Counted from the stretch's first letter, positions 4,522 to 22,680 are shown. The stretch: DNA of 32,000 nt from Spirillospora sp. CA-142024 (GCF_050942325.1 NZ_CP192077.1:8662121-8694120); one strand, 5' to 3'. Program-made: numbers and translations. Notes: generated by a model from the letters alone, not told the origin.

Positions 4522-4523
4522 GG

Positions 4524-7989: not shown

Positions 7990-8001
7990 GGGACCGTCCT
8001 T

Positions 8002-8360: not shown

Positions 8361-8363
8361 CGG

Positions 8364-8711: not shown

Positions 8712-8764
8712 GTGGATCACCCCTCTCGTCCTGTCGCGCTCTTGGGAAGCGCGAGCACATTCAT

Positions 8765-8880
8765 ACTGTGCGCGCACAGTCGTGCGCGTCAAGACGTTAG
8801 CGCACACTTTCGCGTCAACAGCTTCGCGCGTCATGATGTGCGCGGACAGTTGGACGCATACAGGCGTGCGCGCTAGAGTG
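8765..8880. promoter_or_regulatory. Divergent promoter/operator region with a perfect 16-bp palindrome and iterated GTGCGCG heptamers
   Basis: actgtgcgcgcacagt (8765-8780) is a perfect palindrome. GTGCGCG recurs on the + strand at 8768, 8782, 8838 and 8866. The region lies between the minus-strand transfer operon and the plus-strand GntR gene. Confidence 0.45.
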
Positions 8881-8924
8881 ACGGGGGACCAAGCATCGAC
8901 GCAGGTGAGAGGAACCGATCGATC

Positions 8925-9746: not shown

Positions 9747-9925
9747 TGACCGCAGGGGACACCAACGCTCAGCCATGTCCGCATTGCAGCTCAAGTGACA
9801 TCGAGGTCAAGACGAAAATCGACCTCGCGTTTGGTGAGGAAGTTCTATATCGAGCCTGCCGGAACTGTGGCAACGAGTACGACCACGGACTTCCGTCGGC
9901 TGATCAGAAGCGCGACGATTCCTAG
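9746..9925 (+). CDS. Small zinc-ribbon protein (59 aa)
   Basis: The ATG overlaps the GntR stop (TGATG at 9744-9748). MTAGDTNAQPCPHCSS...CRNCGN gives two CxxC pairs. Confidence 0.5.
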   Translation: MTAGDTNAQPCPHCSSSDIEVKTKIDLAFGEEVLYRACRNCGNEYDHGLPSADQKRDDS

Positions 9926-10681
9926 TCGATCGTCGTCCGGTATTGGAATTCGTACCGATCAGCACGGTAAATGATCTTCGCGACCTCGACCGGTGTGTCT
10001 CCCGCCCAGAACGTTTGCCATATCTGGATCACGGGGACACCCGCCGGAATGTCGAGCTGCGCCTCTTCGTGTGGTTCGGGCATGCGGACTTGCAGAACCT
10101 CTTCTTCCACATCTACCGAAGTAGCCGATCGCGTCGAATCGCGGGACAATTCCCTGTCCGCCGTACGGCCCTTCGTGGGGCGACTCGATCTCAGTGCCAG
10201 CCGTGATCGCGAGAGGCTCCCATGCCACGCTGAAAGAGACAGGGCTCCCGCCCATGCTGATTGCATACGAGGTCTCGGTAACAGGGTCGCCCTCGTCGAT
10301 GCCGAGACGTTCCGCAACGCCGGCGGGAGCCTCTGCGCGCTCCGTGGAATGCTCCATGTGGAGTTCCATACCCGCGCGGTCCGACTCCTGTCGATACGCG
10401 GGCTTGGCATGCGGACGCTGGAACCGGTCCCAATGGGTTCTGACGAGGGGCGGGCTCTTCGCAACAAAGGCGCCCTGACCTGCCAGGAAGTAGATTGCGC
10501 CAACGTTCCTCAGTGCGATGAGCGCTCGACGCGCCGCGCTCAACTCACAATCCCACCGCTGGGCCAGCTCCTGAGCGCTTGGCAACGGCGAATCAGGAGT
10601 CAAGTCTCCGCTCTTGATCTGCGACTGAAGGTCGTCGGCGATGGCCTGATACGGGGAGCTTTGCTGATCACGGTCGACCAT
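9922..10681 (-). pseudogene. Second GntR/HutC-family regulator, interrupted by a frameshift near 10111-10130
   Basis: The N-terminal HTH (YQAIADDLQSQIKSGDLTPDSPLPSAQELAQRWDCELSAARRALIALRNVGAIY) and part of the UTRA domain are in the frame of ORF 9959-10681. The conserved UTRA end (VDVEEEVLQVRMPEPHEEAQLDIPAGVPVIQIWQTFWAGDTPVEVAKIIYRADRYEF) is in the frame of ORF 9922-10503. Confidence 0.7.
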
Positions 10682-10764
10682 GGACGGATTCTCTCATAGA
10701 CGGAGTGCGGTACGGGGCGCCGCACTGTGGCCGGTTCCAACCTGTTCGTGCACGCAATGCCAGG

Positions 10765-10977
10765 TCAGATCAAGTCGTGCTCACGATCCTTGACGCGACG
10801 CACGAACGCTCGCCATTCGGTCGCCGCGAAGATCAATATTGGTCCGTCCGGGTCCTTCGAGTCACGCACACCGACCGCAGGTGCCGCGCTCGCCACCTCA
10901 ACGCATGCTCCTCCGTGGTGGTCGCTACGGCTCGCCTTACGCCACCGGAGACCCGTGGGGTTCGGCAAGTTCATCAT
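10765..10977 (-). CDS. DUF397 domain protein (BldB-like)
   Basis: WRKASRSDHHGGACVEVA...VGVRDSKDPDGPILIF...EWRAFV is the canonical DUF397 pattern. The start overlaps the upstream XRE stop (ATGA). Confidence 0.85.
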   Translation of the reverse strand: MMNLPNPTGLRWRKASRSDHHGGACVEVASAAPAVGVRDSKDPDGPILIFAATEWRAFVRRVKDREHDLI

Positions 10978-11816
10978 CCGAGTTCCTCCATCAAACTTTC
11001 GATCAGGCGACGGGACTCATCAATTCGGAGCGCGTCACCTCGAAGCAAGTTGTACAACACCGCACACTCTGCAACGGATTTCTTCTCCTGGAGAAGCATC
11101 CCTTGCCCACCAGCTTCGATGTAGGCGACATCGGTCGAGTCCGCAAAACTGAGCATGATGAAGCTCCCACCCAACCCGGGGTAGTACCCGGCATCCTGCG
11201 GGACGACATCGATCCACACGTTGGGCAACTCGCTAATGGAGAGCAGATGCTGAAGTTGCTCACGTACCACCGTAGGGCCACCGATCACACGCCGCAAAGC
11301 GAACTCGTCGATCGTGAACCATGCTTGAGGTGCGTCCTCAGCAGTGAACAACTCTTGCCGCTTCAAACGGTCCTTCACGAGTTGATCCACCATATCCGGT
11401 CTCTGATTACGTCCAAGCACGGTTCGAATGTAGCTCTCCGTCTGCAACAGCCCATTGACCATGGCAACGTCGAACGCCCGAATGGTAGCCGCTTCCGCTT
11501 CCATTTCGAGGTACTGGTCGAACCCGGGAGGCCGGATCGTCCGGTGACGTGTGTCGATGATGCGCTTCCAAAGGCGCGAGAATAGACCGTTCGTCCTGAA
11601 AAAGGTGTCGAGGTCCTGGGCGAACTTCTCTGAAGGAATGTTCTTGCCGGCTTCGATCTGGCCGAGCCATTGCGGCGTGTATCCGAGCTTCTCGGCCAAG
11701 TCTTGCTTGCTCAGCTGCGCTTCCGAGCGCCACGCCGTGACCTCTGCCGCAAATGTCTGGATAGCCGGATCTTCGTACGCTTCACGCCGTGATCCCATTG
11801 CCGACTCCTCTACCAA
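10974..11816 (-). CDS. XRE-family HTH regulator with a DUF5753-like C-terminal domain (WhiJ-like)
   Basis: HTH LSKQDLAEKLGYTPQWLGQIEAGKNIPS, followed by a long C-terminal domain typical of actinobacterial WhiJ-type paralogues. The start may be Met7 (11798). Confidence 0.85.
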   Translation of the reverse strand: MVEESAMGSRREAYEDPAIQTFAAEVTAWRSEAQLSKQDLAEKLGYTPQWLGQIEAGKNIPSEKFAQDLDTFFRTNGLFSRLWKRIIDTRHRTIRPPGFDQYLEMEAEAATIRAFDVAMVNGLLQTESYIRTVLGRNQRPDMVDQLVKDRLKRQELFTAEDAPQAWFTIDEFALRRVIGGPTVVREQLQHLLSISELPNVWIDVVPQDAGYYPGLGGSFIMLSFADSTDVAYIEAGGQGMLLQEKKSVAECAVLYNLLRGDALRIDESRRLIESLMEELG

Positions 11817-12026
11817 ACCCCGGTGGGAGGTTTCGTGGTCCGGGGCGGAGGTTTACCGGACCCGTTTCGGGGTTCGTAGCCGAGAGTAACTCACGCTTGC
11901 GACTCTGGTCACGGCATTTCAACAGGAAACCGGAGGCGACAGTTCCCCATGGCGAACACCCGCCCACCGCCCGGTGATCATCACCGGTTCCATCCGACAT
12001 CCGGAGACACTCCAAAGGTCGTATCG

Positions 12027-12422
12027 ATGCACGCAACCCTTCTCGCCCCCGAAACCCCGCCCCTCGTCCTCGATCCCACCGTGAACGCGCCGGCCCTGGC
12101 GCGCCGCTTTCTCGCCGAACGCTTCCGCGAGTGGGGCATCGAGGACGACTCCGACGGCCGTCTGGTCGTCTCGGAGCTGGTCACGAACGCCCTTCTCCAC
12201 GGCGCCGGACAGATCGTCGTCCGCGTCTACCGAGACGAGAGCGACGGCATCCCCGTAATCGAGGTGTGGGACCAGGGCGACGGCGCGCCGGTAGTCCGTC
12301 CGGAAAGCGACACCCAGCTCAACGGCCGAGGACTCCTGACCGTCGAGGGCATCGCGCTCAAGTGGGGCACGCGACCGATCACCGAAGGAGGCAAGATCGT
12401 TTGGGCGCGCGTCGCTTCTTAG
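12027..12422 (+). CDS. ATP-binding protein of the anti-sigma-factor kinase (HATPase_c-like, AbaA orfD-like) type
   Basis: ARRFLAERFREWGIEDDSDGRLVVSELVTNALLHGAGQIVVRVY...IEVWDQGDG...GRGLLTVEGIALKWG. It is divergent from the XRE/DUF397 pair. The ATG at 12027 is chosen over the upstream 11949. Confidence 0.8.
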   Translation: MHATLLAPETPPLVLDPTVNAPALARRFLAERFREWGIEDDSDGRLVVSELVTNALLHGAGQIVVRVYRDESDGIPVIEVWDQGDGAPVVRPESDTQLNGRGLLTVEGIALKWGTRPITEGGKIVWARVAS

Positions 12423-12505
12423 GGCGGGAGCTGGTCACCCGCGCGCGTGCCCTCGTCGAGCGCCACACCCTTCGATGCCGTACCCGCATCAGCCACAACA
12501 CCGCG

Positions 12506-12799
12506 TTGCGGTACCTGGATGGGCTCGCCGTAGTGCTCGAAGCGTCCGGCTGGCGATGCGTCCGCCTCTACCGCCCCGATGGGTTCCCGATCTCGCTGCC
12601 AGTCCTGCGGGTGTACGCCCCTGGTGCGGAAGACGTCGAGGTCTGGGTTCACGTCCGAGCAGAACCCGACGGCCGATGGAGCTACTACGAAGCTCGACAA
12701 GGACACGGAACCGGCGGCCACATCTACCTCTGCGGAGACGCGAAGGGAGCCGCCGAAAACGTCGAGCACAGACTCAGAGCCCGAATGTACCTCTGCTGA
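12506..12799 (+). CDS. Hypothetical protein (start uncertain: CTG 12431, TTG 12506 or GTG 12533)
   Basis: The frame of tracked ORF 12131-12799 has strongly GC-biased third positions after 12422 and a protein-like sequence (LRYLDGLAVVLEASGWRCVRLYRPDGFPISLPVLRVYAPGAEDVEVWVHVRAEPDGRWSYYEARQGHG...). The upstream part overlaps the ATP-binding gene out of frame. Confidence 0.3.
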   Translation: MRYLDGLAVVLEASGWRCVRLYRPDGFPISLPVLRVYAPGAEDVEVWVHVRAEPDGRWSYYEARQGHGTGGHIYLCGDAKGAAENVEHRLRARMYLC

Positions 12800-13172
12800 A
12801 ACCCCGAGACGAACCCCCGACTTCCGCCAAGAAGGCGCGCAGAGTCGGGGGTTCCGGATTACCGGAGTAATCGAATGCCTCGCGTCCGCTACGCCCTGCT
12901 GTGCCCCCTCCGCCCCCTACTGCGCTTCTATCTGACCCAACAGAGCGAGATGCACATGGAATCCTCATTCCGCTGCATCCTGCTCCGGGAAAATCACGAG
13001 GCACAAGTTCACTGGGACAAAGCCGAAACCTTCAGGATGGCTGCCGAGACCCTGTCGACTGATCAGCCGGCCCCTACCCCTCCCACCCAGCTTTCCGCAG
13101 TACGAGTGTTCATCGAGGAGACGCCGGACAGCTCAGATCCGACTTCGTGAGCCGTCCGGCATCCCAGAGCCG

Positions 13173-14132
13173 CTATCCCAACACCGACGCTTCGAGGGCC
13201 ATGCTGAACTCCGGATCGATCTGAGTCGTGAGATCGACCCCCACAGACTTGTTGGCCCAACTCTCAGCGTTCTTGACGTGGAACTCCGCACCCTGCCGAG
13301 AGAACTTCTCCCAGTCCTTCGGCTGCGCGTCCACCTCGGCCTGAAGGCGTCGCAGCACCTCCCGCCCAGGACCGTCGAGCGCGCTGAGGTCGAAGGGACG
13401 ACCTTGCTCCATGGCCCGAACGGCCGGTTGGTGCCCCATGCACGTCAGCAGGTCATCCCCCACCTGCGAGCGTAGGAACGCCTCGTCGTCGCTGGTCTGG
13501 ACCTTGTTGCCCACGACCGCGATCTTCACCCCGAAGTCCCGCGCGTGGTCGGTGTACTGCTGGTAGACGGCTACGCCCTTCCTCGTCGGCTCGACGACGA
13601 GGAACATCACGTCGAACCGCGTGAACAGCCCAGAGGCGAACGTGTCCGCCCCCGCCGTCATGTCCACGACGACGTACTCTCCGGGACCGTCAACGAGGTG
13701 GTTGAGGTACATCTCAACCGCTCCCGTCTTCCCGTGATAGCAGGACACCCCAAGGTCCTTGTCGTCGAACTGGCCGGCCGCCATGAAGGTCACGCCACCG
13801 AACCGACGAGACATGGCATGGATCGGGTCGTCACCCCCGATCCGCAGGAGCTTCGAGCCGCGCCCTGGTGGCGTCGTCTTCACCATTTGAGCCGCGGACG
13901 CGATACGAGGGTTATCGCCCCTGAGGTACTCCTTGATGACGTCGAGGTGCGCTCCCAGCGCCGGCACGCTGGCGACCTCCTCATCACTGAGCCCCAAGGC
14001 CGCGCCGAGGTGCTGATTGATGTCCGCGTCGATCGAGACAACCGGCACCCCCTCCGCATCCAGATGACGGATGAACAGCGACGACGTAGTGGTCTTCCCG
14101 CTACCGCCCTTACCCACGAACGCAACCTTCAC
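13173..14132 (-). CDS. MinD/ParA-superfamily P-loop ATPase, CooC-like
   Basis: VKVAFVGKGGSGKTTTSSLFIRHLDAEGVPVVSIDADINQHL is a deviant Walker A of the Mrp/MinD/CooC type; YVVVDMTAGADTF is a Walker B-like segment. GGGAGGG precedes the GTG at 14132. The tracked ORF extends to 14261. Confidence 0.8.
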   Translation of the reverse strand: MKVAFVGKGGSGKTTTSSLFIRHLDAEGVPVVSIDADINQHLGAALGLSDEEVASVPALGAHLDVIKEYLRGDNPRIASAAQMVKTTPPGRGSKLLRIGGDDPIHAMSRRFGGVTFMAAGQFDDKDLGVSCYHGKTGAVEMYLNHLVDGPGEYVVVDMTAGADTFASGLFTRFDVMFLVVEPTRKGVAVYQQYTDHARDFGVKIAVVGNKVQTSDDEAFLRSQVGDDLLTCMGHQPAVRAMEQGRPFDLSALDGPGREVLRRLQAEVDAQPKDWEKFSRQGAEFHVKNAESWANKSVGVDLTTQIDPEFSMALEASVLG

Positions 14133-14462
14133 GAACCCTCCCAAAGAGACGATGAAAACCGTTGTCGTTGCTCCAAGTGTCCTCGGAAGCAAAGCACGTC
14201 GCAAGCGGTTCATCACTGTCCGTGTCGACAGAGCCTCCCACCGCAGGCAATTTGTAAGCATTTGCGCAAAAGCGATAGGCGAGAAGACGCTTTAGCTGAC
14301 GAATAGCCCTCAAAGTGATGGAGATTCGAGCATCAAACCAGAAAAGGGGTTTTTGCTCAGCCATGCAGATGGAAACTTCTACTACCCGAGGCGATTCACT
14401 GACCGCCACAGACGAGCGGCCGATCTGATCGACAGAGGGCAAATTCAGTACTAGATCAAAAT

Positions 14463-14900
14463 TCAGTCTAGATGATCTCTTAGACGGGCTGCAATTGCAT
14501 CAGTATCAGCGATCGACGACTCCTCTACATGCTCCCACTCCGTCCCACCATCGGGCAACGTCCCGGCAACATGGAAATGAACGTGAGGAATCGTTTGATG
14601 TGCAGGGATACCATTGTTCTGCCAAACAGCTACGCCTCGGACTTTATAGGCATTGCTGACTGCTTTGGCGGCCGAGATAATAGCAGGCATGATAGCCGTA
14701 GCTTCATCTTTTGTCAGATCGATTAGGGTAGGCCTATGTCTTATTGGCATTACCAGTAGATGTCCTACACCGCGCTGCTCTCGCGTCACCAAAGTAGCTA
14801 CGGCCTCAGTTCTTGTGAGAATGGTAAACGGTCGAACCCCTGCCAAGTATTCACAAAATGGGCAAGGCCATATCTTGGGGACGTCCAGCGATGCATTCAT
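14463..14900 (-). CDS. HIT (histidine triad) family nucleotide hydrolase/transferase
   Basis: CPFCEYLAG near the N-terminus, GHLLVMPIRH, and the histidine triad QTIPHVHFHVAG. The ATG overlaps the stop of the upstream Macro-like gene (ATGA at 14897-14900). AT-rich composition. Confidence 0.85.
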   Translation of the reverse strand: MNASLDVPKIWPCPFCEYLAGVRPFTILTRTEAVATLVTREQRGVGHLLVMPIRHRPTLIDLTKDEATAIMPAIISAAKAVSNAYKVRGVAVWQNNGIPAHQTIPHVHFHVAGTLPDGGTEWEHVEESSIADTDAIAARLRDHLD

Positions 14901-15763
14901 GACGGCTTAAGCGACCTTAAGAAGGCTTGCAATTCCAGCATATCGAGATTGTCGACATCCGAACTCCTGACCACAATATTTAGCCGATCGGCGACCTTCT
15001 CTTTGCGGGAGGCAAAAATATATGACAAAGCAATGAAGCGAATAGAGTCCTGAGCAGGGAAATATTGAGAGATGCGAGCTTGCCCGCCCCCGATTACTGC
15101 GACCGAGATAGGGTCCCCATTACCCTTCGCCCGAACCTCATCCCACAGATTATTCAGGCTACGCCAGACACGGTCGACGCTCCCGCGTACCTCATTTCGT
15201 TTATTCATCTCCGTGTAAGCTACACAGAAGTACAGGCGGCGAATCGAGGGCGAAATCGCAACGACTGTCCCGACAGGATAGGCCACCTGCTTGCCTGGCT
15301 TAGCATCTTGAGGCGTGAACCGATGGCTTTCGTTGTAAGGGGCGAGCCCCTGCTCTAAAGCCCTATCAAGCGCACGAATATCATTGCGGTAGACTCGCGT
15401 CAGAAGCTGCGCCTGCACACCTTTTTCATCGATGATATGTGGGATCTCGGTGTCAAAGGTGTCCGTCATACCGATGACTATGTTTCCTTCCTGTTCAAAT
15501 AGATCTCCTTCGACAATATGAATTTCGGTGTTGGGAGACTTATACTGTTGCCGCACAGGTCTAGGCCAAGATCTATAAAGACCATATGTAGGTGATATCA
15601 GGAGGACTGTGCCTACAAAAAACACTCCCATTGGAGGAAGCGCTTTTGGGAACAGTGCAGAAACTATGCCCGCAACCACGGCAAAGAAGCCGACGCAGGA
15701 CAAAGTCTGAGTCGAAAACCTTGCCCAGAAGCGCTTTTTTGTCAGGTCCCTTACAATAGCCAC
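14897..15763 (-). CDS. 2-TM membrane protein with a C-terminal Macro-like domain (type II Thoeris ThsA-like effector candidate)
   Basis: Two N-terminal hydrophobic helices (LSCVGFFAVVAGIVSALF, MGVFFVGTVLLISPTYGLY). Then IHIVEGDLFEQEGNIVIGMTDTFDTEIPHIIDEKGVQAQL...VAVIGGGQARI, which resembles the ThsA-type Macro domain. The GTG start sits directly after the TAATAA stop of the TIR gene. Confidence 0.6.
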   Translation of the reverse strand: MAIVRDLTKKRFWARFSTQTLSCVGFFAVVAGIVSALFPKALPPMGVFFVGTVLLISPTYGLYRSWPRPVRQQYKSPNTEIHIVEGDLFEQEGNIVIGMTDTFDTEIPHIIDEKGVQAQLLTRVYRNDIRALDRALEQGLAPYNESHRFTPQDAKPGKQVAYPVGTVVAISPSIRRLYFCVAYTEMNKRNEVRGSVDRVWRSLNNLWDEVRAKGNGDPISVAVIGGGQARISQYFPAQDSIRFIALSYIFASRKEKVADRLNIVVRSSDVDNLDMLELQAFLRSLKPS

Positions 15764-15766
15764 TTA

Positions 15767-16276
15767 TTAGAGACCAATCTTTCGATATGTTTCAGCCTTA
15801 TAGTAGTGAGCCCCCTTCTTATTGGATACAGCATACGCAGGAGCGTAATTGTCTAGAGCGTATCGAATTATCCTAGGCTGGAACGAAACTGATAGCGTGT
15901 AGTAGTCGTCATCAATAAACCGTTGAGGAATGAAGTTTTCATCAATGAAACGATCCCCATCCAGGTTGGCAATAATTACTGGCAGGTCGAGCTTCGAAAT
16001 AACCTCGACCTCATAATAGAGAAACGACTTTCCGTCTCCCGCCTTCTTCTTCCCCTTCGCACTGCCCAGTATGATGGCTTGTTTCGTGTTAGCCAGCCGC
16101 AGACGAAGGCTTCGCCGGATGGTCTCTGGCAGACTAGTATCCCTTGCCTGTGCAAGATCGTGTGCGTCTAGGAAGTTGAAATCGATGTGCTCGTTATCGC
16201 GCCAGGCTGTCATGAGTCTGTAGTAGTTAATGTCTTCACTGGCGAAGGCTACGTAGGTCTTATTGCGATAACTCAT
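15767..16276 (-). CDS. TIR-like domain protein (DUF1863/ThsB-like)
   Basis: KTYVAFASEDINYYRLMTAWRDNEHIDFNFLDAHDL...TKQAIILGSAKG...YYEVEVISKLDLPVIIANL fits the ThsB/MTH538 TIR-like pattern: beta1 with an acidic loop, a second strand, then a conserved Glu. GGAGGA lies upstream of the ATG. Confidence 0.7.
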   Translation of the reverse strand: MSYRNKTYVAFASEDINYYRLMTAWRDNEHIDFNFLDAHDLAQARDTSLPETIRRSLRLRLANTKQAIILGSAKGKKKAGDGKSFLYYEVEVISKLDLPVIIANLDGDRFIDENFIPQRFIDDDYYTLSVSFQPRIIRYALDNYAPAYAVSNKKGAHYYKAETYRKIGL

Positions 16277-16679: not shown

Positions 16680-17636
16680 CTAATCTCTTAGCCAGCGTTC
16701 AATGGCTACAGGAACAGTGGCTTCAATATCGGTGAGATCGAATGTCTCCCGCAGGGTGCCCAATATATCTGCCCGGAGATTACTAAATGCGTTATCGGCT
16801 AGTAGGAGAGCTGGCTTGTTGAGCGCTCGCATGAATCCGTATTCAAGAGCAACGTTTGGATTAAATTCGTTAGCCGCCCTGTCTTCCAGGATGGCAACTC
16901 CACGGCTACAGCAGAGCATGTATACGCAGACATTATTCCAGAGATTTCGATCTGGCATGTAAACCTTATCGTCCGCCCTGACCGGATTATAACCGTGTTC
17001 GCGCAAAGCTTTTCGAATTTCTTGATCTAGCGTGACAAGGAACTTGCTCCCAGCATCAAAGCGTGTCATTAGGAAGACGTTGCGCTCGTATCTCGGGTGA
17101 TCCTTAAAGAAACGTTCGCACTCTTTCGCAAGGAAGTCGTAGCCTGGAGGGAGAGAGAAGTTTCCCATTGTATCGAACCCTCTAACGTAATGCGATTGCC
17201 ATCTAATGGCATAATCGACCTGCAAGCGCAATATAGCTTGCACCTGAGAGGGCAGCAATCCCCAATCCTCTTCGATATTTCGACCTTCAACCTCAGGAAG
17301 GAAGAAGAGGCAGTCCTGCTGCCTCAATTCAAAGTCTCGATACAATGAATCGAGAAGATTGAGGATGGCGTCTGATTCGAGAGAGACCTCGTCAATCGGT
17401 TGAACGTTTTCTGGCAACGATAGCAAGTTGACCCCATTGACCGACGAAATTACGTCAGCCGATCCCTTGTCGCGCAATACGAACAGCCGCACGGAGTCAG
17501 AGGCGCGATAAACTTTGCCGTCGAAACTCTGGATGGGCCAGCGATACAGATCCGCCCTGCGGTCTTCTTCGACTATTCGACGCATCCAATCCCTGAATCC
17601 AAAACACCAATCTATGTTGAAGTGCTCACGAACCAT
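16680..17636 (-). CDS. Hypothetical protein with a C-terminal nucleoside 2-deoxyribosyltransferase/TIR-like Rossmannoid domain
   Basis: The C-terminal 130 aa read VFLMTRFDAGS...LDQEIRKALREHGYNPVRADD...NLWNNVCVYMLCCSRGVAILED...FNPNVALEYGFMRALNKPALLLAD. This reproduces the strand-helix-strand layout and the x-N-V-x-x-E-x-G motif of NDT/TIR-like clades. The N-terminal 185 aa were not recognised. Confidence 0.55.
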   Translation of the reverse strand: MVREHFNIDWCFGFRDWMRRIVEEDRRADLYRWPIQSFDGKVYRASDSVRLFVLRDKGSADVISSVNGVNLLSLPENVQPIDEVSLESDAILNLLDSLYRDFELRQQDCLFFLPEVEGRNIEEDWGLLPSQVQAILRLQVDYAIRWQSHYVRGFDTMGNFSLPPGYDFLAKECERFFKDHPRYERNVFLMTRFDAGSKFLVTLDQEIRKALREHGYNPVRADDKVYMPDRNLWNNVCVYMLCCSRGVAILEDRAANEFNPNVALEYGFMRALNKPALLLADNAFSNLRADILGTLRETFDLTDIEATVPVAIERWLRD

Positions 17637-17717: not shown

Positions 17718-20700
17718 TCAGCAACTGAGCCCTCTCACATATGTAATGGCCTCAACAAGCGCGTCAGGAGAGGCGATGCCAACTGCTGTGAGGAGGTCCG
17801 TAGCCGTCGCGTATACCATTGCCGATGAGATCAGCTGCCGAGCGCGGGCCGCATCAGTTGTTCTGGCGATGGCTTCGAGGGCATATGCAGCCGCCGGAGG
17901 GTTGACAATGGATCCAACGATGGCTTCAGCGCGCTCAACTTGTCCAGCTTCCACCAAGGCGTCGACCACGCTGCTCAACGCGGAAGCCTGACTCTGGGGG
18001 CTGGTGATAGTACGGGCGACGGCTTCAGCCCGTACTAGACTCCCAATTCTCGCCAGCGCGTCGACCACGCTGCTCAACGCATAGGCCCGATTCTGGGGGT
18101 CAGTGATAGCGCGGGCAACATTCTCGGCTTCGGTAGCCAACTCAGCAGCCTGCTCAACCTGACCCGCCTTCACCAACGCGTGGACCACAGTGCTCAGCGC
18201 GTTTGCCTGGTTCTGGAGGTCGGTGATGGTCCGGGCGACAGCTTCAGCCCGTCCAAGACTCCCCATGCTCACCAGCGCCCAAACAACGTTACTCAGCGCG
18301 GACCCCTTACTTCGGGGGTCGGCGATAGCGCGGGCAAGGGTCTCGGCTTCGTTGGCTAACTCGGCAGCCTGCTCAACCTCACCTACCTCCGCCAGGGTGC
18401 CGGCCACTCTGCTCATCGCATACACCTGGTTCAGCAGGTCGGTTATGGCGCGGGCAACGGTCTCGGCTTCGTTGGCCAACTCAGCAGCCCGCTCACCCCC
18501 ACCTACCTCCACCAGCGCTTCGACCACACTGCTCAGCGCGTTTGCCTGGTTCTGGGGATCGGTGATGGTCCGGGCAACGGCTTCAGCCCGTTCTAGGCTC
18601 CCCATGCTCGCCACTGTGTCAACCACTCTGCTCAGCGCGTAGGCCCGGTTCTGGGGGTCGGTGATGGTGCGGGCAACGTTTTCCGCTTCGATAGCCAACT
18701 CAGCGGCTGGCTCGGCCCGACCCGCCTTCACCAACGCGTCGACCAGATTGCTCAGCGCATAGGCCTGACTATGGGGGTCGGTGATGGTGCGGGCAACGTT
18801 CTCCGCTTCGGTAGCCAACTCAGCAGCCCGCTCAACCCCACCCACGTCCACCAACGCGCGGGCTACCCTGCTCAGCGCGTAAGCCTGGTTCTGGGGGTCG
18901 GTGATGGTCCGGGCGACAGCTTCAGCCCGTACCAGGCTCCCCATGCTCACGAGCGCGTCGACCACACTGCTCCACGCATAAGCCTGGCCCAAAAGATCGG
19001 GAACGGAATTGGCGACGTTCTCGGCTTCCGTGGCCAACTCAGCAGCCCGCTCAACCCCACCCACGTCCACCAACGCATCGACCACACTGCTCAGCGCGTC
19101 TGCCTGGTTCTGGGGGTCGGTGATGGTCCGGGCGACGGCTTCAGCCCGTTCTAGACTCCCCAAGCTCACCAGCGCCCAAACAATGTGCTTCAGCGCGAAC
19201 GCTTGGTTTCGGGGGTCGGTGATGATCCGGGCAAGGGTCTCGGCTTCGGTAGCCAACTCAGCAGCCCGCTCAACCCCACCCACGTCCACCAACGCGTCGA
19301 CCACACTGCTCAGCGCATACACCTGGTTTCGAGGGTCGGTGATAGTCCGGGCGACGTTCTCCGCTTCGGTAGCCAACTCAGCAGCCCGCTCAACCCCACC
19401 CGCCTTCACCAACGCGCGGGCTATCCTGCTCAGCGCGTAAACCCGACTCTGAGAGTCGGTGATAGTGCGGGCAAGGGTCTCGGCTTCGGTGGCCAACTCA
19501 GCGGCTGGCTCGGTCCGCCCCACCTTCACCAACGCATCGGCCACGCTGCTCAGCGCGTCTGCCTGGTTTCGAGGGTCGGTGATGGTGCGGGCGACGGCTT
19601 CAGCCCGTTCTAGACTCCCGATGGTCACCAGCGCGTCGACCACGATGCTCAGCGCATAGGCCTGACTCAAGAGATTTGGAACGGAATTGGCGATGTTCTC
19701 CGCTTCCGTCGCCAACTCAGCAGCCCGCTCAACCCCACCCGCGTCCACCAACGCGTCGACCACTTTGCCCAGCGCCACTACCTGGTCCGGAGGATCGCTG
19801 AGAGAATGGGCCAATGCGAGGGCACGATTAAGATTTCCTAGACGTGCCCAGGCAGCCGGAAGTCCTACGGGGATGTTGCTGTTGCGTTGGATAAGGCGTT
19901 GCCGGGTCAAAGCAACGTGGAGAGCCGAGACTAAGTCAGGGCTAGGTTGGTCACGAATGTGCTCCAGAACGGTGATAATGTCAGCTATTGCCGCACCGTC
20001 TCCTTTGCTTACATCCAGCATGCGGTCTAAGCGTTCTTGATCTGCAACCAGTGCCCGCATGCGCGACAAGTCACCGATTTTGTGAAGCTGTTGAAGGTAT
20101 CCGCGGAGCAAATATTCCGGTGTACCTTTGGGCCAGCCAGAACCTCGATAGCGCTCTGCCCAGGCATGGATCCGCTCCCACCATGCTTGGGTCTCCACTT
20201 GGCGGAGGGATCGCAAAACACTCTGCACGAGTTCCTCATGAGCCAGCACGAGGAGTTCATCGCCATTGTCGGCCCACCGTGGGGCACGGCAAGTAAATGA
20301 TCGGCCCGTGACGGCATGAAGGATCCGTTCCACCTCCCCCACCGGCTCACCTGTCAACTCCGCCAAGTCCCGGCCTGATAGGCCACCTCCCGCCGTTACC
20401 AGCAGGCCAAGCAGGTCACGCCCTACCCCGCCGCCATCCAAGAGGTCTGACAACTCGCGCTCGGCTGCGGCTCGGAACGCCACCGCCCAATCAGAAGGCC
20501 GCAATGCACGGACGATTCCCTGCTTCTGGAGCGGATGCCAGTCCGGCACGTCCCCCGGTACAGGCGGGTTCGGACGGCCTGACACCACGACGCGCACCCC
20601 TTCAGGGGGCCGACCGGGCAACAAAGCGGCGATGCTGTGAGCATCCCTGCTACGTCGCACGCCCCGGTCCTCGTCCAATCCATCGACCACGAGCACCAGC

Positions 20701-21212
20701 CGGTATCCGTCCGCCGCGCACTTGCCCGCAGCCTCCTCCAGCAGTTGCAAGAACCACTGCTGGCGATTCGACTCAGTCAACACATCCGGCAGCGCTTGAC
20801 CTGTTAGTTCCGCCAATTGCTCCAACACCGCTGCCAAAAATGCGGACCGGTCGCTCTGGCCCGCAAGCCGCGCAGTGATAAAAAAGGACACCACACGGAC
20901 CCTTGCCGGCGGATTCTGCACAAAAGACGCCATCAACGCCGACTTGCCAGCCCATGCCGGAGCTTGCCACCACACATAATCCGGACCTTCCGGGCATGTG
21001 CAGAACTCTGCCAACTCTTCAAGCTCCGCCCGGCGATCCTTCAGCTCACCGGAGAAAATCTGCTCAACCTGCCGCGCATACGCCGAGCGGAAAGGACCTG
21101 TCGCTCGCATTCCGTAATAATTGTTCTGAATGCCAGTATTAACATTCGCGCCATCACCACCCGACGCGCGCCCCGACCGGCGAACCCAACCCCACCAAGG
21201 TCGACTCGTCAA
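17718..21212 (-). CDS. NACHT-type STAND NTPase (bacterial NLR-like) with a C-terminal array of about 18 alpha-helical repeats
   Basis: Walker A WWQAPAWAGKSALMASF. NACHT-like Walker B RLVLVVDGLDED. A helical/winged-helix region is followed by repeats of the form ERAAELATEAENVARTITDPxNQxYALSxVVDALVxxGxx. The start overlaps the stop of the upstream small gene. Confidence 0.85.
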   Translation of the reverse strand: MTSRPWWGWVRRSGRASGGDGANVNTGIQNNYYGMRATGPFRSAYARQVEQIFSGELKDRRAELEELAEFCTCPEGPDYVWWQAPAWAGKSALMASFVQNPPARVRVVSFFITARLAGQSDRSAFLAAVLEQLAELTGQALPDVLTESNRQQWFLQLLEEAAGKCAADGYRLVLVVDGLDEDRGVRRSRDAHSIAALLPGRPPEGVRVVVSGRPNPPVPGDVPDWHPLQKQGIVRALRPSDWAVAFRAAAERELSDLLDGGGVGRDLLGLLVTAGGGLSGRDLAELTGEPVGEVERILHAVTGRSFTCRAPRWADNGDELLVLAHEELVQSVLRSLRQVETQAWWERIHAWAERYRGSGWPKGTPEYLLRGYLQQLHKIGDLSRMRALVADQERLDRMLDVSKGDGAAIADIITVLEHIRDQPSPDLVSALHVALTRQRLIQRNSNIPVGLPAAWARLGNLNRALALAHSLSDPPDQVVALGKVVDALVDAGGVERAAELATEAENIANSVPNLLSQAYALSIVVDALVTIGSLERAEAVARTITDPRNQADALSSVADALVKVGRTEPAAELATEAETLARTITDSQSRVYALSRIARALVKAGGVERAAELATEAENVARTITDPRNQVYALSSVVDALVDVGGVERAAELATEAETLARIITDPRNQAFALKHIVWALVSLGSLERAEAVARTITDPQNQADALSSVVDALVDVGGVERAAELATEAENVANSVPDLLGQAYAWSSVVDALVSMGSLVRAEAVARTITDPQNQAYALSRVARALVDVGGVERAAELATEAENVARTITDPHSQAYALSNLVDALVKAGRAEPAAELAIEAENVARTITDPQNRAYALSRVVDTVASMGSLERAEAVARTITDPQNQANALSSVVEALVEVGGGERAAELANEAETVARAITDLLNQVYAMSRVAGTLAEVGEVEQAAELANEAETLARAIADPRSKGSALSNVVWALVSMGSLGRAEAVARTITDLQNQANALSTVVHALVKAGQVEQAAELATEAENVARAITDPQNRAYALSSVVDALARIGSLVRAEAVARTITSPQSQASALSSVVDALVEAGQVERAEAIVGSIVNPPAAAYALEAIARTTDAARARQLISSAMVYATATDLLTAVGIASPDALVEAITYVRGLSC
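17940..19835 (-). repeat. In-frame tandem coding repeats (alternating 99-nt and 120-nt units) inside the STAND gene
   Basis: The 44-nt string gccaactcagcagcccgctcaaccccacccacgtccaccaacgc occurs identically at 18814-18857, 19033-19076 and 19252-19295. Many further near-identical units are visible. They translate to 33- and 40-aa repeats. Confidence 0.85.
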
Positions 21213-21553
21213 CGCGACTCCACCCCGCTATTGGCATCCCCGCCCTCAGCATCGCCCGTGCGATCCACCCGGACGCCATCGGGCACCGAACCACCCACCG
21301 AGAGCCCTGTGTTCGCCCTCCCCCCAGGCCCCGCCGTCGCCTTCCCCGTCCGAGACACACGCACACTTGAGAGGCCTCCCGCGACCACCGGCCAGGCCGC
21401 CCACACCGCCACCCCCACCGCAGCAACCCCCGCCAAGGCCGAGGCACTAGTCGCAATCTTGTTGGCGTCGTCCCATTTCAACACCAGGAACAACACCACC
21501 AACACCGCTACCACGACACCCGACACAACCAGCGCGACCCGCCCACCATGCAT
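21209..21553 (-). CDS. Small 2-TM protein with a Gly/Asn-rich C-terminal tail (candidate membrane effector partner of the STAND NTPase)
   Basis: GAGGGAAG lies 8 nt upstream of the ATG at 21553. Hydrophobic helices VALVVSGVVVAVLVVLFLVL and ALAGVAAVGVAVWAAWPVVAGG. The tail is VSRTGKATAGPGGRANTGLSVGGSVPDGVRVDRTGDAEGGDANSGVESR. The stop overlaps the NTPase start. Confidence 0.65.
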   Translation of the reverse strand: MHGGRVALVVSGVVVAVLVVLFLVLKWDDANKIATSASALAGVAAVGVAVWAAWPVVAGGLSSVRVSRTGKATAGPGGRANTGLSVGGSVPDGVRVDRTGDAEGGDANSGVESR

Positions 21554-21837
21554 TCCGACATCTTCCCTCAAGATCACCAATATTGCCGAGGGCTGGAACA
21601 TAAGACCGAACTAGGTCAACGGTCTCAGCAGTGACAAGAAGCGATCTCCGACGGACGGTCGGCGCCTGGATCCTCCCATGAGATCTGTCCAGGTTGCTCG
21701 GCAGTTGGGCCTGCGATCGCCGTTGCCTGACTGAAGTCAGCTCAGGTATTGGGGCGATCGGTGACACGGAGTTCACCGTGCGCAGCCCGATCATCGTCGC
21801 GCTGTCCACTGGTCCCTGTCGACGATTAGCAGAAAGG

Positions 21838-22680
21838 TCAGGTAGCGGTCTCGTCGGAGGCACGGTTGTACGTAGCTTCGTGTTGTTGGCGGGGGGAGCA
21901 GACTGAGGCTGAGGGGCAGGAGCAGCGGCCGCCGCTGTTGAGGCGGACTGTGACCTTGTCCGCGGGGACGTTGCGTCCTACCACCTGGCCTGGGCCGTTC
22001 GGGGTGTCCACGCGGGATCCCAGCTTCGGCATGCTGTCGTGCGCCTTGACATACAACGGGTGCTCGTACTTGAGGCAGCACATCAGGCGGCCGCAGGCGC
22101 CTGCTATGCGGAGGGGGTTGACTGGGAGGTCCTGTTCCTTCGCCATGCGGACGGAGACGGGCTCGAAGTCCTTCAGGAAGGTGGCGCAGCACAGGTCCCG
22201 GCCGCAGGGGCCTATGCCGCCCTGGAGGCGGGCCTCGTCGCGGGGGCCGACCTGGCGGAGTTCGACGCGGGCCTTGATGCCGCGGGCCAGGTCGCGGACG
22301 AGGGCGCGGAAGTCGACCCGGTGCGGGGCGGTGAAGTAGATCTTGAAGACGTTGTCGGCGTCGAGGTAGTCGACGCCGATGACCTTCATCGGGAGCTCGT
22401 GCTTGCGGATCAGGCGCTTGGCGATGGAGCGGCCCTCGGCGCGGCGGCGGCGGTTGGCCTCGTCGCGGGCGAGGTGCTCGTCGGTGGCGGGGCCGGCGCA
22501 TTCGGGGAGGCCGCCGATGTCGTCGGAGACCCACTGCGGCGCCCACACGCACTCGGCGACCTCGGGCCCGGAGTCGGTCGGGACGAGGACCCTGTCGCCG
22601 ACCTTGGGGCTGTGCGGGCCGGGGTCGAGGTAATAGAGCCGACCGTAACGGGTGAAGCTGACGGCCATCACCATGCCCAC
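21838..22680 (-). CDS. PSP1 C-terminal domain protein (YaaT/RicT-like)
   Basis: MAVSFTRYGRLYYLDPGPHSPKVGDRVLVPTDSGPEVAECVWAPQWV... and ...GACGRLMCCLKYEHPLY are typical of PSP1/stage 0 sporulation YaaT homologues. The start is GTG 22680 or ATG 22674/22668, after GGAG. The last 13 codons lie beyond the repeat on the element side. Confidence 0.85.
   Translation of the reverse strand: MGMVMAVSFTRYGRLYYLDPGPHSPKVGDRVLVPTDSGPEVAECVWAPQWVSDDIGGLPECAGPATDEHLARDEANRRRRAEGRSIAKRLIRKHELPMKVIGVDYLDADNVFKIYFTAPHRVDFRALVRDLARGIKARVELRQVGPRDEARLQGGIGPCGRDLCCATFLKDFEPVSVRMAKEQDLPVNPLRIAGACGRLMCCLKYEHPLYVKAHDSMPKLGSRVDTPNGPGQVVGRNVPADKVTVRLNSGGRCSCPSASVCSPRQQHEATYNRASDETAT
21878..21929. repeat. Right copy of the 52-bp direct repeat (candidate attR core)
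   Basis: Matches 1628-1679 at 51 of 52 positions. It lies inside the codons for RCSCPSASVCSPRQQH of the PSP1-domain gene. Confidence 0.75.

What the first reader, a model, noticed from the sequence alone, without database searches (positions are those of the whole stretch)
17718..21212. NACHT STAND NTPase with about 18 near-identical 33/40-aa repeats whose variation is confined to a few positions
Seen directly: a P-loop (AWAGKS) and DGLDE Walker B are followed by roughly 1.9 kb of in-frame tandem repeats that alternate 99-nt and 120-nt units. A 44-nt string is repeated identically at 18814, 19033 and 19252.

Aligning the units by eye, the scaffold residues (ERAAELATEAE-VAR-ITDP, ALS, ALV, G) are almost invariant. 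Substitutions cluster at the positions in TDP-[RQH]-[NS]-[QR]-[AV]-[YDFNS]-ALS-[SRNHT]-[VIL]-[VA]-[DRWEHG].

Established knowledge: high internal repeat conservation with hypervariable surface positions is the hallmark of fungal NLR repeat domains that diversify by unequal recombination. It has also been noted for STAND/NLR-like conflict systems in multicellular bacteria.

Inference: this looks like a rapidly diversifying ligand-sensing domain of an NLR-type immune sensor. The repeat does not look like canonical TPR, WD40 or ANK.
Basis: partly seen in the sequence, partly recalled or inferred. Interest (0 to 1): 0.75.

Follow-up and report, generated by a model that had tools for sequence, protein, structure and literature searches.

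The report
Bacterial NLR sensor with membrane partner
This is an NLR-type (NACHT plus TPR-like repeat) sensor gene of a filamentous actinomycete, and it is paired with a tiny membrane protein that carries two copies of the short strand-forming motif found at the sensor's start, which suggests a HET-s-like switch between sensor and membrane effector.

Summary
A 1164-aa ORF on the minus strand (17718-21212) has a NACHT-type P-loop (AWAGKS, VVDGLDED). It is followed by 17 clear helix-turn-helix repeats of 40 or 33 aa, and the 44-nt triple is exact.

"Near-identical" and "alternating" are overstated. Units are on average 59% identical in protein and 69% in DNA, and the published high-internal-conservation threshold is just missed. 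Variation is concentrated (p = 4e-13) on one face of helix A and the A-B turn.

Three orthologues from different genera keep the same 17-unit order. Each array nevertheless has its own array-wide consensus, which indicates concerted evolution without change in repeat number. dN/dS is three times higher in the repeats than in the NTPase module but stays below 1, so diversifying selection is not shown.

A 114-aa two-transmembrane protein (21209-21553) overlaps the sensor start by 4 bp. Its tail holds two charge-complementary pseudo-repeats of the sensor's N-terminal motif. The pair is conserved (315 clusters), occurs fused, and also joins NB-ARC NTPases.

This matches the layout of bacterial amyloid-signalling (BASS) NLR pairs, but with a non-Bell effector and an unclassified motif. 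Function is inferred.

The parts
17718..21212 (-). NLR-type sensor gene, 1164 aa: N-terminal short motif, NACHT-type NTPase, helical/winged-helix region, 17 TPR-like repeats, C-terminal cap
   Evidence: ORF listing. Pfam NPHP3_N and PADLOC STAND_TPR at E = 5e-118. AF2 model with mean pLDDT 86. TTG start with a GGTGGAG Shine-Dalgarno sequence 6 nt upstream. dN/dS of 0.10 over codons 1-45 against L001 supports translation from this start.
21111..21188 (-). Sensor N-terminal motif R0 (aa 9-34, WVRRSGRASGGDGANVNTGIQNNYYG), one copy of the motif shared with the partner
   Evidence: Local alignment to the partner tail gives z = 6.0, with 0 of 1000 shuffles reaching the score. The same holds in 9 of 11 pairs. 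AF2 gives low confidence here, with two short strands.
20574..21008 (-). NACHT-type P-loop NTPase core (aa 69-213), with Walker A at 20940-20957 and Walker B at 20667-20690
   Evidence: Pfam NPHP3_N E = 3.7e-9, above the gathering score. Motif coordinates. 16 of 58 relatives hit PF05729 NACHT.
19803..20573 (-). Helical and winged-helix part of the NOD module (aa 214-470), including the SGRPNPP sensor-like motif
   Evidence: PADLOC STAND_TPR match covers aa 44-510. AF2 secondary structure. Many invariant columns in alignment A2.
17889..19802 (-). 17 TPR-like helix-turn-helix repeats (aa 471-1108): 11 units of 40 aa and 6 of 33 aa. The 33-aa units lack one heptad (AAELATE) of helix B
   Evidence: TRF. 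Segmentation and entropy. AF2 gives helix A of 17 aa and helix B of 16 or 9-10 aa. Profile hits to TPR structures.
17721..17888 (-). C-terminal helical cap (aa 1109-1164), starting with a degenerate unit
   Evidence: Translation. AF2 helices 1105-1162. 89% identical to L001.
21209..21553 (-). Partner gene: 114-aa protein with a two-helix hydrophobic hairpin and a tail with two pseudo-repeats. Its stop overlaps the sensor start by 4 bp (TTGA). The mechanical ORF extends to 21601
   Evidence: ORF and junction. 83 homologues, all unnamed and without Pfam hits. 315 representative clusters. Immediately upstream of the sensor in the window, L001 and L003-L008.
21377..21538 (-). Two hydrophobic helices (TM1 21479-21538, TM2 21377-21445) joined by the conserved KWDDANKIAT loop
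   Evidence: Kyte-Doolittle 19-residue windows peak at 3.26 and 1.97. AF2 helices 3-24 and 30-58. Conservation in alignment A1.
21296..21364 (-). Pseudo-repeat R1 (VRVSRTGKATAGPGGRANTGLSV), the basic copy
   Evidence: Alignment A1. Best local match to sensor R0. AF2 strands 64-67, 72-73 and 79-86.
21212..21274 (-). Pseudo-repeat R2 (VRVDRTGDAEGGDANSGVESR), the acidic copy
   Evidence: Alignment A1. In-register charge complementarity with R1 across 164 family members. AF2 strands 94-97, 102-103 and 106-113.

Best explanation
The locus is a two-gene NLR-type conflict system of a filamentous actinomycete.

**Shown**
- The large gene encodes a cytosolic NACHT-type STAND NTPase with a superhelix of 17 TPR-like repeats.
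- The variable residues of those repeats line one face of helix A.
- The sensor begins with a roughly 25-residue G/N-rich motif.
- The translationally coupled upstream gene encodes a 114-aa protein with a two-helix hydrophobic hairpin and a tail.
- That tail carries two charge-complementary copies of the same motif.

**Inferred mechanism**
1. A ligand, most likely a phage or other non-self protein, binds the repeat surface and releases the NTPase.
2. The NTPase oligomerises and brings several N-terminal motifs together.
3. The clustered motifs fold into a stacked beta arrangement.
4. This arrangement templates the two-rung tail of the membrane partner, as NWD2 does for HET-S in fungi.
5. Polymerising tails cluster the membrane hairpins in a holin-like way and damage the membrane.
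6. The infected cell or hyphal compartment dies.

The repeat array is kept uniform by gene conversion, while its surface positions change faster than the rest of the protein.
For: **Architecture**
- establish NACHT-type NTPase plus TPR-like repeats. The Foldseek top hit is Avs3 (8dgc_A).

**Partner gene**
- It has a 4-bp overlap with the sensor and a Shine-Dalgarno sequence.
- It is a conserved family of 83 homologues and 315 representative clusters.
- It is adjacent to the sensor in every one of 8 loci in which the partner gene was found. Four further partner and sensor proteins were paired because their listed longest contigs have the same length.

**Shared motif**
- Local alignment gives z = 4-10 against composition-preserving shuffles in 9 of 11 pairs.
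- tblastn of the window partner hits sensor N-termini in L007 (81% over 21 aa) and L008.

**HET-s-like tail features**
- There are two pseudo-repeats separated by a 6-21 aa G/P-rich linker.
- Charges are opposite in register. R1 is basic in 52-55% of members and R2 acidic in 71-76% of 164 members.
- AF2 predicts two three-strand rungs, at pLDDT about 70-79.

**Functional link**
- P0329 and P0344 fuse hairpin, R1, R2, R0, NACHT and repeats in one chain.
- P0222 fuses hairpin, R1 and R2 to an NB-ARC domain.

**Precedent**
- Bell/BASS-NLR pairs have the same layout, including 4-bp overlaps and pseudo-repeats (Dyrka et al. 2020).
- An unclassified Streptomyces populi pair has the same motif type.
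- Bab/Agp shows that such a pair can act in phage defence.

**Repeat surface and evolution**
- Variable columns 5/6, 9, 13, 16 and 20 have helical spacing and recur in three orthologues, with rho 0.65-0.83.
- Concerted evolution is shown.

**Context**
- The pair sits in different neighbourhoods in different genomes.
- In the window it lies next to a mobile element that carries Thoeris.
Against: - No experiment bears on this family. Amyloid or prion behaviour, membrane damage and a defence role are all inferred.
- The motif is G/A/T-rich and charged. It is poorer in Q/N than classical BASS motifs and matches none of the BASS classes I could compare (1, 2, 4, 5, 6, 7, 9, 10).
- Cognate pairs are only marginally more alike than non-cognate pairs: 52.5 against 47.1, permutation p = 0.02.
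- Fusions that keep all three motif copies in one chain fit a permanent intramolecular beta stack as well as they fit a trans-templating switch.
- The partner was not shown to be a Bell/HeLo-type domain. No Bell model was available here, and it has no Pfam or PDB relative.
- One close relative of the sensor (L002) has the motif but no partner within 6 kb.
- dN/dS stays below 1 at all site classes.
- No ligand is known.
Confidence: 0.55

Rival explanations
1. Permanent tether. The partner is a membrane anchor, and R0, R1 and R2 form one stable three-rung beta stack that holds the sensor at the membrane at all times. Activation then works through NTPase-driven rearrangement of pre-assembled complexes, or the sensor monitors events at the envelope. 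No prion-like templating is involved.
For: - The single-chain fusions P0329 and P0344 keep all three motif copies.
- The motif is family-wide with little pair-specific covariation.
- Charge complementarity would stabilise a fixed stack equally well.
- Translational coupling suggests the two proteins are made together.
Against: - In the best-studied precedents, HET-S/NWD2 and Bab/Agp, the same gene layout works by induced templating.
- AF2 gives the sensor motif low confidence, as expected for a region that is unfolded at rest.
- A mere anchor would not need two pseudo-repeats.
Confidence: 0.25
2. The uniform repeats are a neutral by-product. Gene conversion homogenises the array, and surface positions are simply less constrained. 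The array is an ordinary TPR scaffold, not a rapidly diversifying recognition surface.
For: - dN/dS is below 1 everywhere, at 0.39-0.59.
- Repeat number and order are unchanged across three genera.
- The HIC threshold is not met.
- Relatives range from 30% to 75% internal identity without a change of architecture.
Against: - The repeat region diverges much faster than the NOD at equal dS. Amino-acid identity is 78% against 92% for L001, and 49% against 83% for L006.
- The same helix-face columns are variable in three lineages.
- Pairwise counting methods are conservative, and gene conversion blurs the signal.
Confidence: 0.35
3. The protein is a housekeeping or regulatory STAND protein of the MalT/AfsR/NsdA kind that controls transcription or development. 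It is not an immune sensor.
For: There are weak NCBIfam and Pfam similarities of the repeat region to the AfsR, NsdA, MalT and HaaT TPR regions. All are far below their cut-offs.
Against: - There is no DNA-binding domain. The Xre-HTH part of the PADLOC model is not matched.
- The partner is a small membrane protein with a shared motif.
- Relatives carry TIR and other death or defence N-terminal domains.
- The gene pair sits in different neighbourhoods in different genomes.
Confidence: 0.05

Closest known systems
Bell/BASS-NLR gene pairs of filamentous bacteria (Dyrka et al. 2020, bioRxiv 10.1101/2020.01.06.895854) and E. coli Bab/Agp (bioRxiv 10.1101/2024.11.07.622273)
   Same: - A small effector gene lies next to an NLR, often overlapping it by 4 bp.
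- A motif of about 20-25 aa sits at the effector C-terminus and the NLR N-terminus.
- The effector sometimes carries two pseudo-repeats and the NLR one copy.
- The effector N-terminus is hydrophobic.
- The systems occur in filamentous actinomycetes.
- One unclassified S. populi pair in their Table S2 carries the same motif type.
   Different: - The effector here is a hairpin of two hydrophobic helices about 58 aa long. It is not the roughly 100-aa Bell bundle, and it has no Pfam or PDB relative.
- The motif (V.R[ST]G.A.AG.GG.AN[ST]G) fits none of the BASS classes I could compare (1, 2, 4, 5, 6, 7, 9, 10).
- Amyloid behaviour is untested.
HET-S/NWD2 of Podospora anserina (fungal amyloid signalling)
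   Same: - A NACHT NLR with one N-terminal motif copy.
- An adjacent effector with two pseudo-repeats separated by a flexible loop.
- A membrane-targeting effector (description).
- In-register opposite charges between the two repeats. That this holds for HET-s is from my own knowledge.
   Different: - There is no sequence relationship.
- The effector is a short two-helix hairpin rather than a HeLo domain.
- The NLR repeats are TPR-like rather than WD40.
- The system is bacterial.
Bacterial NACHT proteins (bNACHT, Kibby et al.; bioRxiv 10.1101/2022.07.19.500537) and Avs STAND sensors
   Same: - NACHT or STAND NTPase with a C-terminal 'antigen-receptor-type' repeat domain such as TPR.
- The Foldseek best match is Avs3 bound to phage terminase, 8dgc_A, E = 1.2e-10.
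   Different: - No PADLOC hit other than STAND_TPR and TPR models.
- There is no fused enzymatic effector. The effector is a separate membrane protein linked through a short motif.
- No defence phenotype has been tested.
Fungal NLR repeats with high internal conservation (Dyrka et al. 2014, PMC4986451)
   Same: - Internal conservation is much higher than in ordinary TPR arrays.
- There are signs of concerted evolution.
- Variable positions lie on the helix that lines the binding groove.
   Different: - The 85%-over-100-aa criterion is missed, at 81%.
- No repeat-number polymorphism is seen among the three orthologues.
- Positive selection is not detected.
PADLOC PDLC01173 STAND_TPR (ATPase fused to Xre-HTH and TPR, linked to cas1-less type I-E in Streptomyces)
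   Same: The NOD module is clearly homologous: E = 5.4e-118, aa 44-510 against model positions 91-521.
   Different: - The first 90 model positions, which hold the HTH, are not matched.
- No family search of the ORFs I scanned named a cas gene.
- The N-terminus here is the short shared motif.

Membership tests
NACHT clade of STAND NTPases | Walker A GxxxxGK[ST] and a NACHT-type Walker B hhhhDGhDE | tested here: met
   APAWAGKS at aa 84-91 and LVLVVDGLDED at aa 172-182 are read directly. G89, K90, D177, G178, L179, D180 and E181 are invariant in 58 relatives.
NACHT clade of STAND NTPases | A match to a curated NACHT-type profile above its cut-off | tested here: met
   PF24883 NPHP3_N scores 37.4 bits against a cut-off of 24.8. 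PF05729 NACHT itself is not hit by this protein, but it is hit by 16 of 58 aligned relatives.
NACHT clade of STAND NTPases | Structural match of the NOD module to solved NACHT structures rather than to other STAND clades | tested here: inconclusive
   The whole-model Foldseek search is dominated by the repeat region. The top hit is Avs3 8dgc_A with TM 0.15-0.22. Sequence and profile searches of the PDB found no NOD relative.
TPR repeats | A match to curated TPR profiles above the cut-off | tested here: not met
   TPR_12 scores 28.5 bits against a cut-off of 30.1. Many relatives do pass TPR models.
TPR repeats | Helix-turn-helix units forming a superhelix, with similarity to solved TPR proteins | tested here: met
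   AF2 gives paired helices per unit at pLDDT 75-97. The profile hits TON_1535 at 6.3e-12, plus designed TPRs and LGN/Pins. Foldseek hits are TPR superhelices.
High-internal-conservation (HIC) NLR repeats (Dyrka et al. 2014) | At least 85% identity over at least 100 aa within the protein | tested here: not met
   The best 100-aa self match is 81% in the window, 74% in L001 and 60% in L006. The criterion is quoted.
High-internal-conservation (HIC) NLR repeats (Dyrka et al. 2014) | Concerted evolution of the units | tested here: met
   Every window unit is closer to a paralogue (55-85%) than to its positional orthologue in L006 (35-60%). Array-wide lineage-specific residues include Q in 13 of 17 against R in 13 of 16 at column 7, and L in 10 of 11 against V in 9 of 11 at column 30.
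High-internal-conservation (HIC) NLR repeats (Dyrka et al. 2014) | Repeat-number polymorphism and positive selection at surface codons | tested here: not met
   The same 17-unit order is found in three genera. dN/dS is 0.47-0.59 at variable columns. Within-species samples were not available.
Bacterial amyloid signalling (BASS) effector/NLR pair | Adjacent effector and NLR genes that share a short motif at the effector C-terminus and the NLR N-terminus | tested here: met
   4-bp overlap. Motif similarity gives z = 4-10 in 9 of 11 pairs. The pair is conserved in 8 loci.
Bacterial amyloid signalling (BASS) effector/NLR pair | The motif belongs to one of the described classes BASS1-11 | tested here: not met
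   The motif was compared with Table S2 sequences of BASS1, 2, 4, 5, 6, 7, 9 and 10. It resembles only a 'class_not_assigned' S. populi pair. BASS3, 8 and 11 were not seen as sequences.
Bacterial amyloid signalling (BASS) effector/NLR pair | The effector is a Bell (HeLo-like) domain | tested here: inconclusive
   There is no Pfam or PDB relative. AF2 shows only two long hydrophobic helices. No Bell profile or sequence was available for a direct comparison.
Bacterial amyloid signalling (BASS) effector/NLR pair | The motif forms amyloid fibrils and the NLR-side copy seeds the effector-side copy | not testable with these tools
   Only indirect support exists: AF2 predicts two three-strand rungs, and charges are complementary in register.
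Avs / tested bNACHT defence systems | A match to the defence-system profiles and a fused effector domain | tested here: not met
   PADLOC returned only STAND_TPR and two TPR models. Only about 45 residues precede the NOD.

The most novel reading that the evidence does not exclude
A widespread family (at least 315 sequence clusters) of actinomycete NLR pairs uses a HET-s-like switch. The switch has two charge-complementary rungs on a holin-like two-helix membrane protein and one rung on the sensor. It would be an independent bacterial counterpart of HET-S/NWD2. It has a new effector type and a new motif class, it attaches to both NACHT and NB-ARC sensors, and it also exists as a single-chain fusion. 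Its TPR-like sensor arrays are homogenised by gene conversion while keeping a fixed 17-unit plan.
Probability: 0.35. Interest if true: 0.7.

Novelty: new variant of a known kind. Interest (0 to 1): 0.5.

Why it matters
Bacterial NLR-like proteins with repeat sensors are known, and so are amyloid-signalling pairs in filamentous bacteria. In actinomycetes, however, the function of those pairs is still open, and the catalogued effectors are mainly Bell domains.

This locus points to a compact and easily testable pair. It consists of a 114-aa two-helix membrane protein and a NACHT sensor, and the motif has the two-rung, charge-paired design that made HET-s a structural model. If confirmed, it would have three consequences:
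- It would widen the set of bacterial prion-like switches.
- It would give a minimal membrane effector for studying how polymerisation of a tail is converted into membrane damage.
- It would offer natural fusions and NB-ARC variants as controls.

The repeat array shows strong concerted evolution with a frozen repeat plan. That differs from the repeat-number turnover described for fungal NLRs. It is also relevant to how such sensors change specificity.

Tried and rejected
- **PDB sequence search with the NOD module.** Only spurious merlin hits at E about 0.2. The profile search found TPR proteins but no NOD relative.
- **PDB profile search with the partner family.** Nothing below E = 0.1.
- **Pfam on the partner.** Only sub-threshold noise.
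- **Assignment of the motif to a known BASS class.** BASS1, 2, 4, 5, 7, 9 and 10 are clearly different. BASS6 is only loosely alike.
- **Pair-specific co-evolution of the motif.** The effect is weak (p = 0.02). I do not use it as evidence.
- **Positive selection.** Nei-Gojobori counts between units and between orthologues never give dN/dS above 1. This holds even for columns chosen from an independent lineage.
- **HIC criterion.** Not met.
- **Partner gene near the L002 sensor.** Not found.
- **Thoeris as part of the system.** Rejected. Collinearity with L001 ends exactly at the sensor stop codon, and the Thoeris genes lie on an inserted element with a serine recombinase and FtsK/SpoIIIE.
- **Regex extraction of L008 units.** This failed and was replaced by an HMM search.

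Full report
**1. The observation**

The region holds one ORF on the minus strand, 17718-21212, of 1164 aa with a TTG start.

The P-loop AWAGKS lies at aa 86-91 and the Walker B VVDGLDED at aa 175-182. Tandem Repeats Finder reports overlapping arrays from 17933 to 19775 with periods 120, 219 and 339 and scores up to 1441.

Segmenting the protein on the A-L-S anchor gives 17 clear units between aa 471 and 1108, which is window 17889-19802. Eleven units have 40 aa and six have 33 aa. The order is 40,33,40,40,40,33,40,33,40,40,33,40,40,33,40,33,40. A unit HMM finds the same 17 units plus a weak partial match just before the array, at aa 453-470. The short units lack exactly one heptad (AAELATE) of the second helix. 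The 44-nt string occurs exactly three times, at the stated coordinates.

So the features are real and far beyond chance. Two descriptions are too strong:
- The units do not strictly alternate.
- They are not near-identical. Mean pairwise identity is 59% in protein and 69% in DNA, with maxima of 85% and 89%.

**2. Where the variation sits**

Per-column entropy separates three groups:
- Invariant or nearly invariant columns: A10, L11, V14, A17, L18, G22, A27, A34, E35, A38.
- Variable columns: 5, 6, 9, 13, 16, 20, 21, 23, 24, 36.
- A smaller group of mildly variable columns.

The spread is significantly uneven (chi2 138.8, df 39, p = 4e-13). The ten most variable columns hold 56% of non-consensus residues.

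In the AlphaFold2 model (mean pLDDT 86, pTM 0.68), each unit is a 17-residue helix A, a turn, and a helix B of 16 residues in long units or 9-10 residues in short units. Columns 5/6, 9, 13, 16 and 20 are spaced 3-4 residues apart on helix A, so they form one face. Columns 21-24 are the A-B turn.

In TPR proteins helix A lines the ligand groove.

The same columns are the variable ones in two orthologous arrays (Spearman rho 0.83 and 0.65).

**3. What kind of protein**

*NTPase module.*
- Pfam gives NPHP3_N, a NACHT-type P-loop, above its gathering score.
- Among 58 aligned relatives, 54 hit NPHP3_N, 16 hit PF05729 NACHT and 19 hit AAA_16.
- The Walker B has the NACHT form hhhhDGhDE.
- PADLOC matches the NOD module to STAND_TPR at E = 5.4e-118. 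The first 90 positions of that model, which hold an Xre-HTH, are not matched.

*Repeats.*
- They fall just short of Pfam TPR_12, at 28.5 against 30.1 bits.
- A family profile hits solved TPR proteins: TON_1535 at 6e-12, designed TPRs, and LGN/Pins.
- Foldseek places the model next to Avs3 (8dgc_A, E = 1e-10), a Pyrococcus STAND-TPR protein (6mfv) and many TPR superhelices.

The repeats are a TPR-like variant rather than something separate.

Relatives of the NOD carry different N-terminal domains, including TIR, DUF4062, PF19955 and PF19965. This is the modular habit of NLR-type proteins.

**4. Orthologues and repeat evolution**

A scan of one genome per species found five related loci. A contig look-up found a sixth orthologue in Thermomonospora umbrina.

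Spirillospora sp. CA-108201 (L001) and T. umbrina (L006) have the same 17-unit order as the window. These three independent assemblies argue against collapse. They also show no change in repeat number across three genera.

The arrays have nevertheless diverged much faster than the NOD:

| Comparison | NOD aa identity | Repeat aa identity |
|---|---|---|
| Window vs L001 | 92% | 78% |
| Window vs L006 | 83% | 49% |

Every window unit is more similar to another window unit (55-85%) than to its positional orthologue in L006 (35-60%). Several columns carry a different residue across the whole array in each lineage:
- Column 7: Q in 13 of 17 units against R in 13 of 16.
- Column 30: L in 10 of 11 against V in 9 of 11.
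- Column 32: T against A.
- Column 40: T against S.

Parallel substitution in nine or more units is implausible. This is concerted evolution, most simply by gene conversion, because the unit plan is unchanged.

Internal identity differs widely among relatives, from 0.30 to 0.59. In a metagenomic relative it reaches 0.75 with yet another consensus.

The published criterion for high internal conservation is at least 85% over at least 100 aa. It is narrowly missed, at 81%.

**5. Selection**

Nei-Gojobori counts between units give dN/dS of 0.39 overall, with dS about 0.75. The units are therefore not recent copies.

Between the window and L001, dS is similar along the gene (0.20-0.28), but dN/dS differs by region:

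| Region or site class | dN/dS |
|---|---|
| NOD | 0.14 |
| Repeats, all columns | 0.43 |
| Repeats, variable columns | 0.53-0.59 |
| Repeats, scaffold columns | 0.33-0.35 |

Nothing exceeds 1. The repeats evolve faster at the protein level, most of all on the helix-A face. Diversifying selection is neither shown nor excluded, because pairwise counting is conservative and gene conversion confounds it.

**6.

*Gene and protein.* Immediately upstream on the same strand lies a small ORF (21209-21601). Its likely start is the ATG at 21553, which gives 114 aa. Its stop overlaps the sensor's TTG start in the sequence TTGA, with a Shine-Dalgarno sequence in front.

The protein has two strongly hydrophobic helices joined by a conserved KWDDANKIAT loop. 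A tail follows with two similar segments:
- R1: VRVSRTGKATAGPGGRANTGLSV
- R2: VRVDRTGDAEGGDANSGVESR

The sensor begins with WVRRSGRASGGDGANVNTGIQNNYYG.

*Motif sharing.* Local alignment of partner tail against sensor head beats composition-preserving shuffles in 9 of 11 pairs (z 4-10), always at the same relative place. The window partner also finds the sensor N-termini of other loci by tblastn.

*Conservation.*
- The partner is a conserved, unnamed family without Pfam or PDB relatives.
- It comprises 315 representative clusters, nearly all 100-130 aa.
- It lies directly upstream of the sensor in the window, L001 and L003-L008.

*Fusions.*
- Two long proteins, P0329 and P0344, fuse hairpin, R1, R2, a third motif copy, NACHT and repeats in one chain.
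- P0222 fuses hairpin, R1 and R2 to an NB-ARC domain.

*Tail design.*
- Across 164 members with two copies, R1 is basic and R2 acidic at the same two in-register positions.
- The linker between copies is 6-21 residues.
- AlphaFold2 predicts two helices followed by two three-strand rungs.

**7. Comparison with what is known**

Dyrka et al. (bioRxiv 10.1101/2020.01.06.895854) described this gene layout in filamentous bacteria. The features are a small effector with a hydrophobic N-terminus and a C-terminal motif, an adjacent NLR with the motif at its N-terminus, ORFs overlapping by 4 bp, and sometimes two or three pseudo-repeats on the effector side as in HET-s.

Their effector is the roughly 100-aa Bell domain, and their motifs fall into ten classes. 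The motif here matches none of the classes I could read. It does resemble one 'class_not_assigned' pair from Streptomyces populi.

The 2024 preprint on Bab/Agp shows that such a pair can give abortive-infection phage defence in E. coli.

I therefore read the locus as working like an amyloid-signalling NLR pair. I do not file it in any named BASS class or as a Bell protein, because those membership features were not met or could not be tested.

**8. Mechanism and its status**

*Shown:*
- The domain architecture.
- The coupled gene pair.
- The shared motif.
- The two charge-paired pseudo-repeats.
- The fusions.
- Concerted evolution of the repeats.

*Inferred:*
- Ligand binding on the helix-A face.
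- NTP-dependent oligomerisation.
- Beta-stack templating from sensor to partner.
- Clustering of membrane hairpins, membrane damage and cell death.
- A role in phage defence or another conflict.

The main rival is a permanent tether, in which R0, R1 and R2 form one stable stack. The single-chain fusions fit that reading equally well.

**9. Surroundings**

The window is collinear with L001 at 88% nt identity from 27801 down to the sensor stop at 17718, and it differs after that point.

Downstream in the window lie:
- an unnamed 318-aa ORF,
- ThsB (TIR) and ThsA (Macro) of a Thoeris system,
- a ParA-like gene,
- two GntR regulators,
- DUF2637,
- FtsK/SpoIIIE,
- a large serine recombinase.

GC content falls to 49-54% over the Thoeris genes. 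This looks like an integrative conjugative element inserted next to the sensor pair, not part of it.

In L001 the pair is followed by a 219-bp copy of the 3' end of the PSP1 gene that precedes it. This suggests an integration hotspot.

**10. Verdict**

- The sensor alone would be a new member of a known kind.
- With its partner, the locus is a new variant of the amyloid-signalling NLR pairs.
- Interest is moderate, and it rests on inference that simple experiments could settle.

Noticed in passing
window 14897-16276 (-): A complete Thoeris pair lies here. ThsA has a Macro domain (PADLOC ThsA2 E = 8e-115; Pfam ThsA_Macro 1.7e-51), and ThsB is a TIR protein (ThsB2 E = 2e-83). GC is 49-54% against about 70% in the flanks.
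   Followed up: partly
window 16680-17636 (-): A 318-aa ORF lies between ThsB and the sensor. It has no PADLOC hit and only a sub-threshold Pfam hit to nucleoside 2-deoxyribosyltransferase (E = 0.048, aa 206-283). Its low GC resembles that of the Thoeris genes, so it may be a third Thoeris-linked component.
   Followed up: no
window ~1600-14300: This stretch carries genes typical of an actinomycete integrative conjugative element: a large serine recombinase (1827-3479), FtsK/SpoIIIE (4821-6638), DUF2637 (7267-7989), two GntR/UTRA regulators, and a ParA/CbiA-like gene (13173-14261). Together with Thoeris, this block is absent from the collinear Spirillospora locus.
   Followed up: partly
L001 9591-9806 and 11763-11974; window 21851-22069 and 1603-1813: In Spirillospora the partner and sensor pair is followed by a 92%-identical copy of the last 219 bp of the preceding PSP1 gene. 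A second, more diverged PSP1-like fragment lies next to the serine recombinase in the window. The 3' end of PSP1 may be an integration hotspot.
   Followed up: partly
P0329, P0344 (1385 and 1368 aa), P0222 (420 aa): These are natural fusions. Two have the two-helix hairpin, R1, R2 and a third motif copy joined to NACHT and repeats in one chain. One has the hairpin, R1 and R2 joined to an NB-ARC domain (Pfam E = 4e-26).
   Followed up: partly
L002 5986-9717 (Actinocorallia sp. API 0066): This close relative of the sensor (75% identity in the NOD) keeps the N-terminal motif. It has no partner gene within the 13-kb locus; a dapA-like gene ends 150 bp upstream. Its repeats are degenerate, with mean unit identity 0.40.
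   Followed up: partly
L008 8795-10300 (metagenome ERZ25039468): This relative has units that are 75% identical on average, with their own consensus (ITDPDGQAQALAAVAEALAGAGDLDQARQVAEHAE.VARS). The reading frame is broken several times inside the repeats. That may reflect assembly or sequencing error in a very uniform array.
   Followed up: partly
one search hit list: All 120 listed database relatives of the NOD module are shorter than 830 aa, and many are labelled partial. This may mean that short-read assemblies commonly break inside the repeat arrays of this family.
   Followed up: no
L007 11423-14339 (Saccharothrix): Downstream of the partner and sensor pair lie further STAND NTPase genes (nSTAND3, and a faint nSTAND1 hit), with a NUDIX gene just upstream of the pair. 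This is a cluster of conflict-type NTPases.
   Followed up: no
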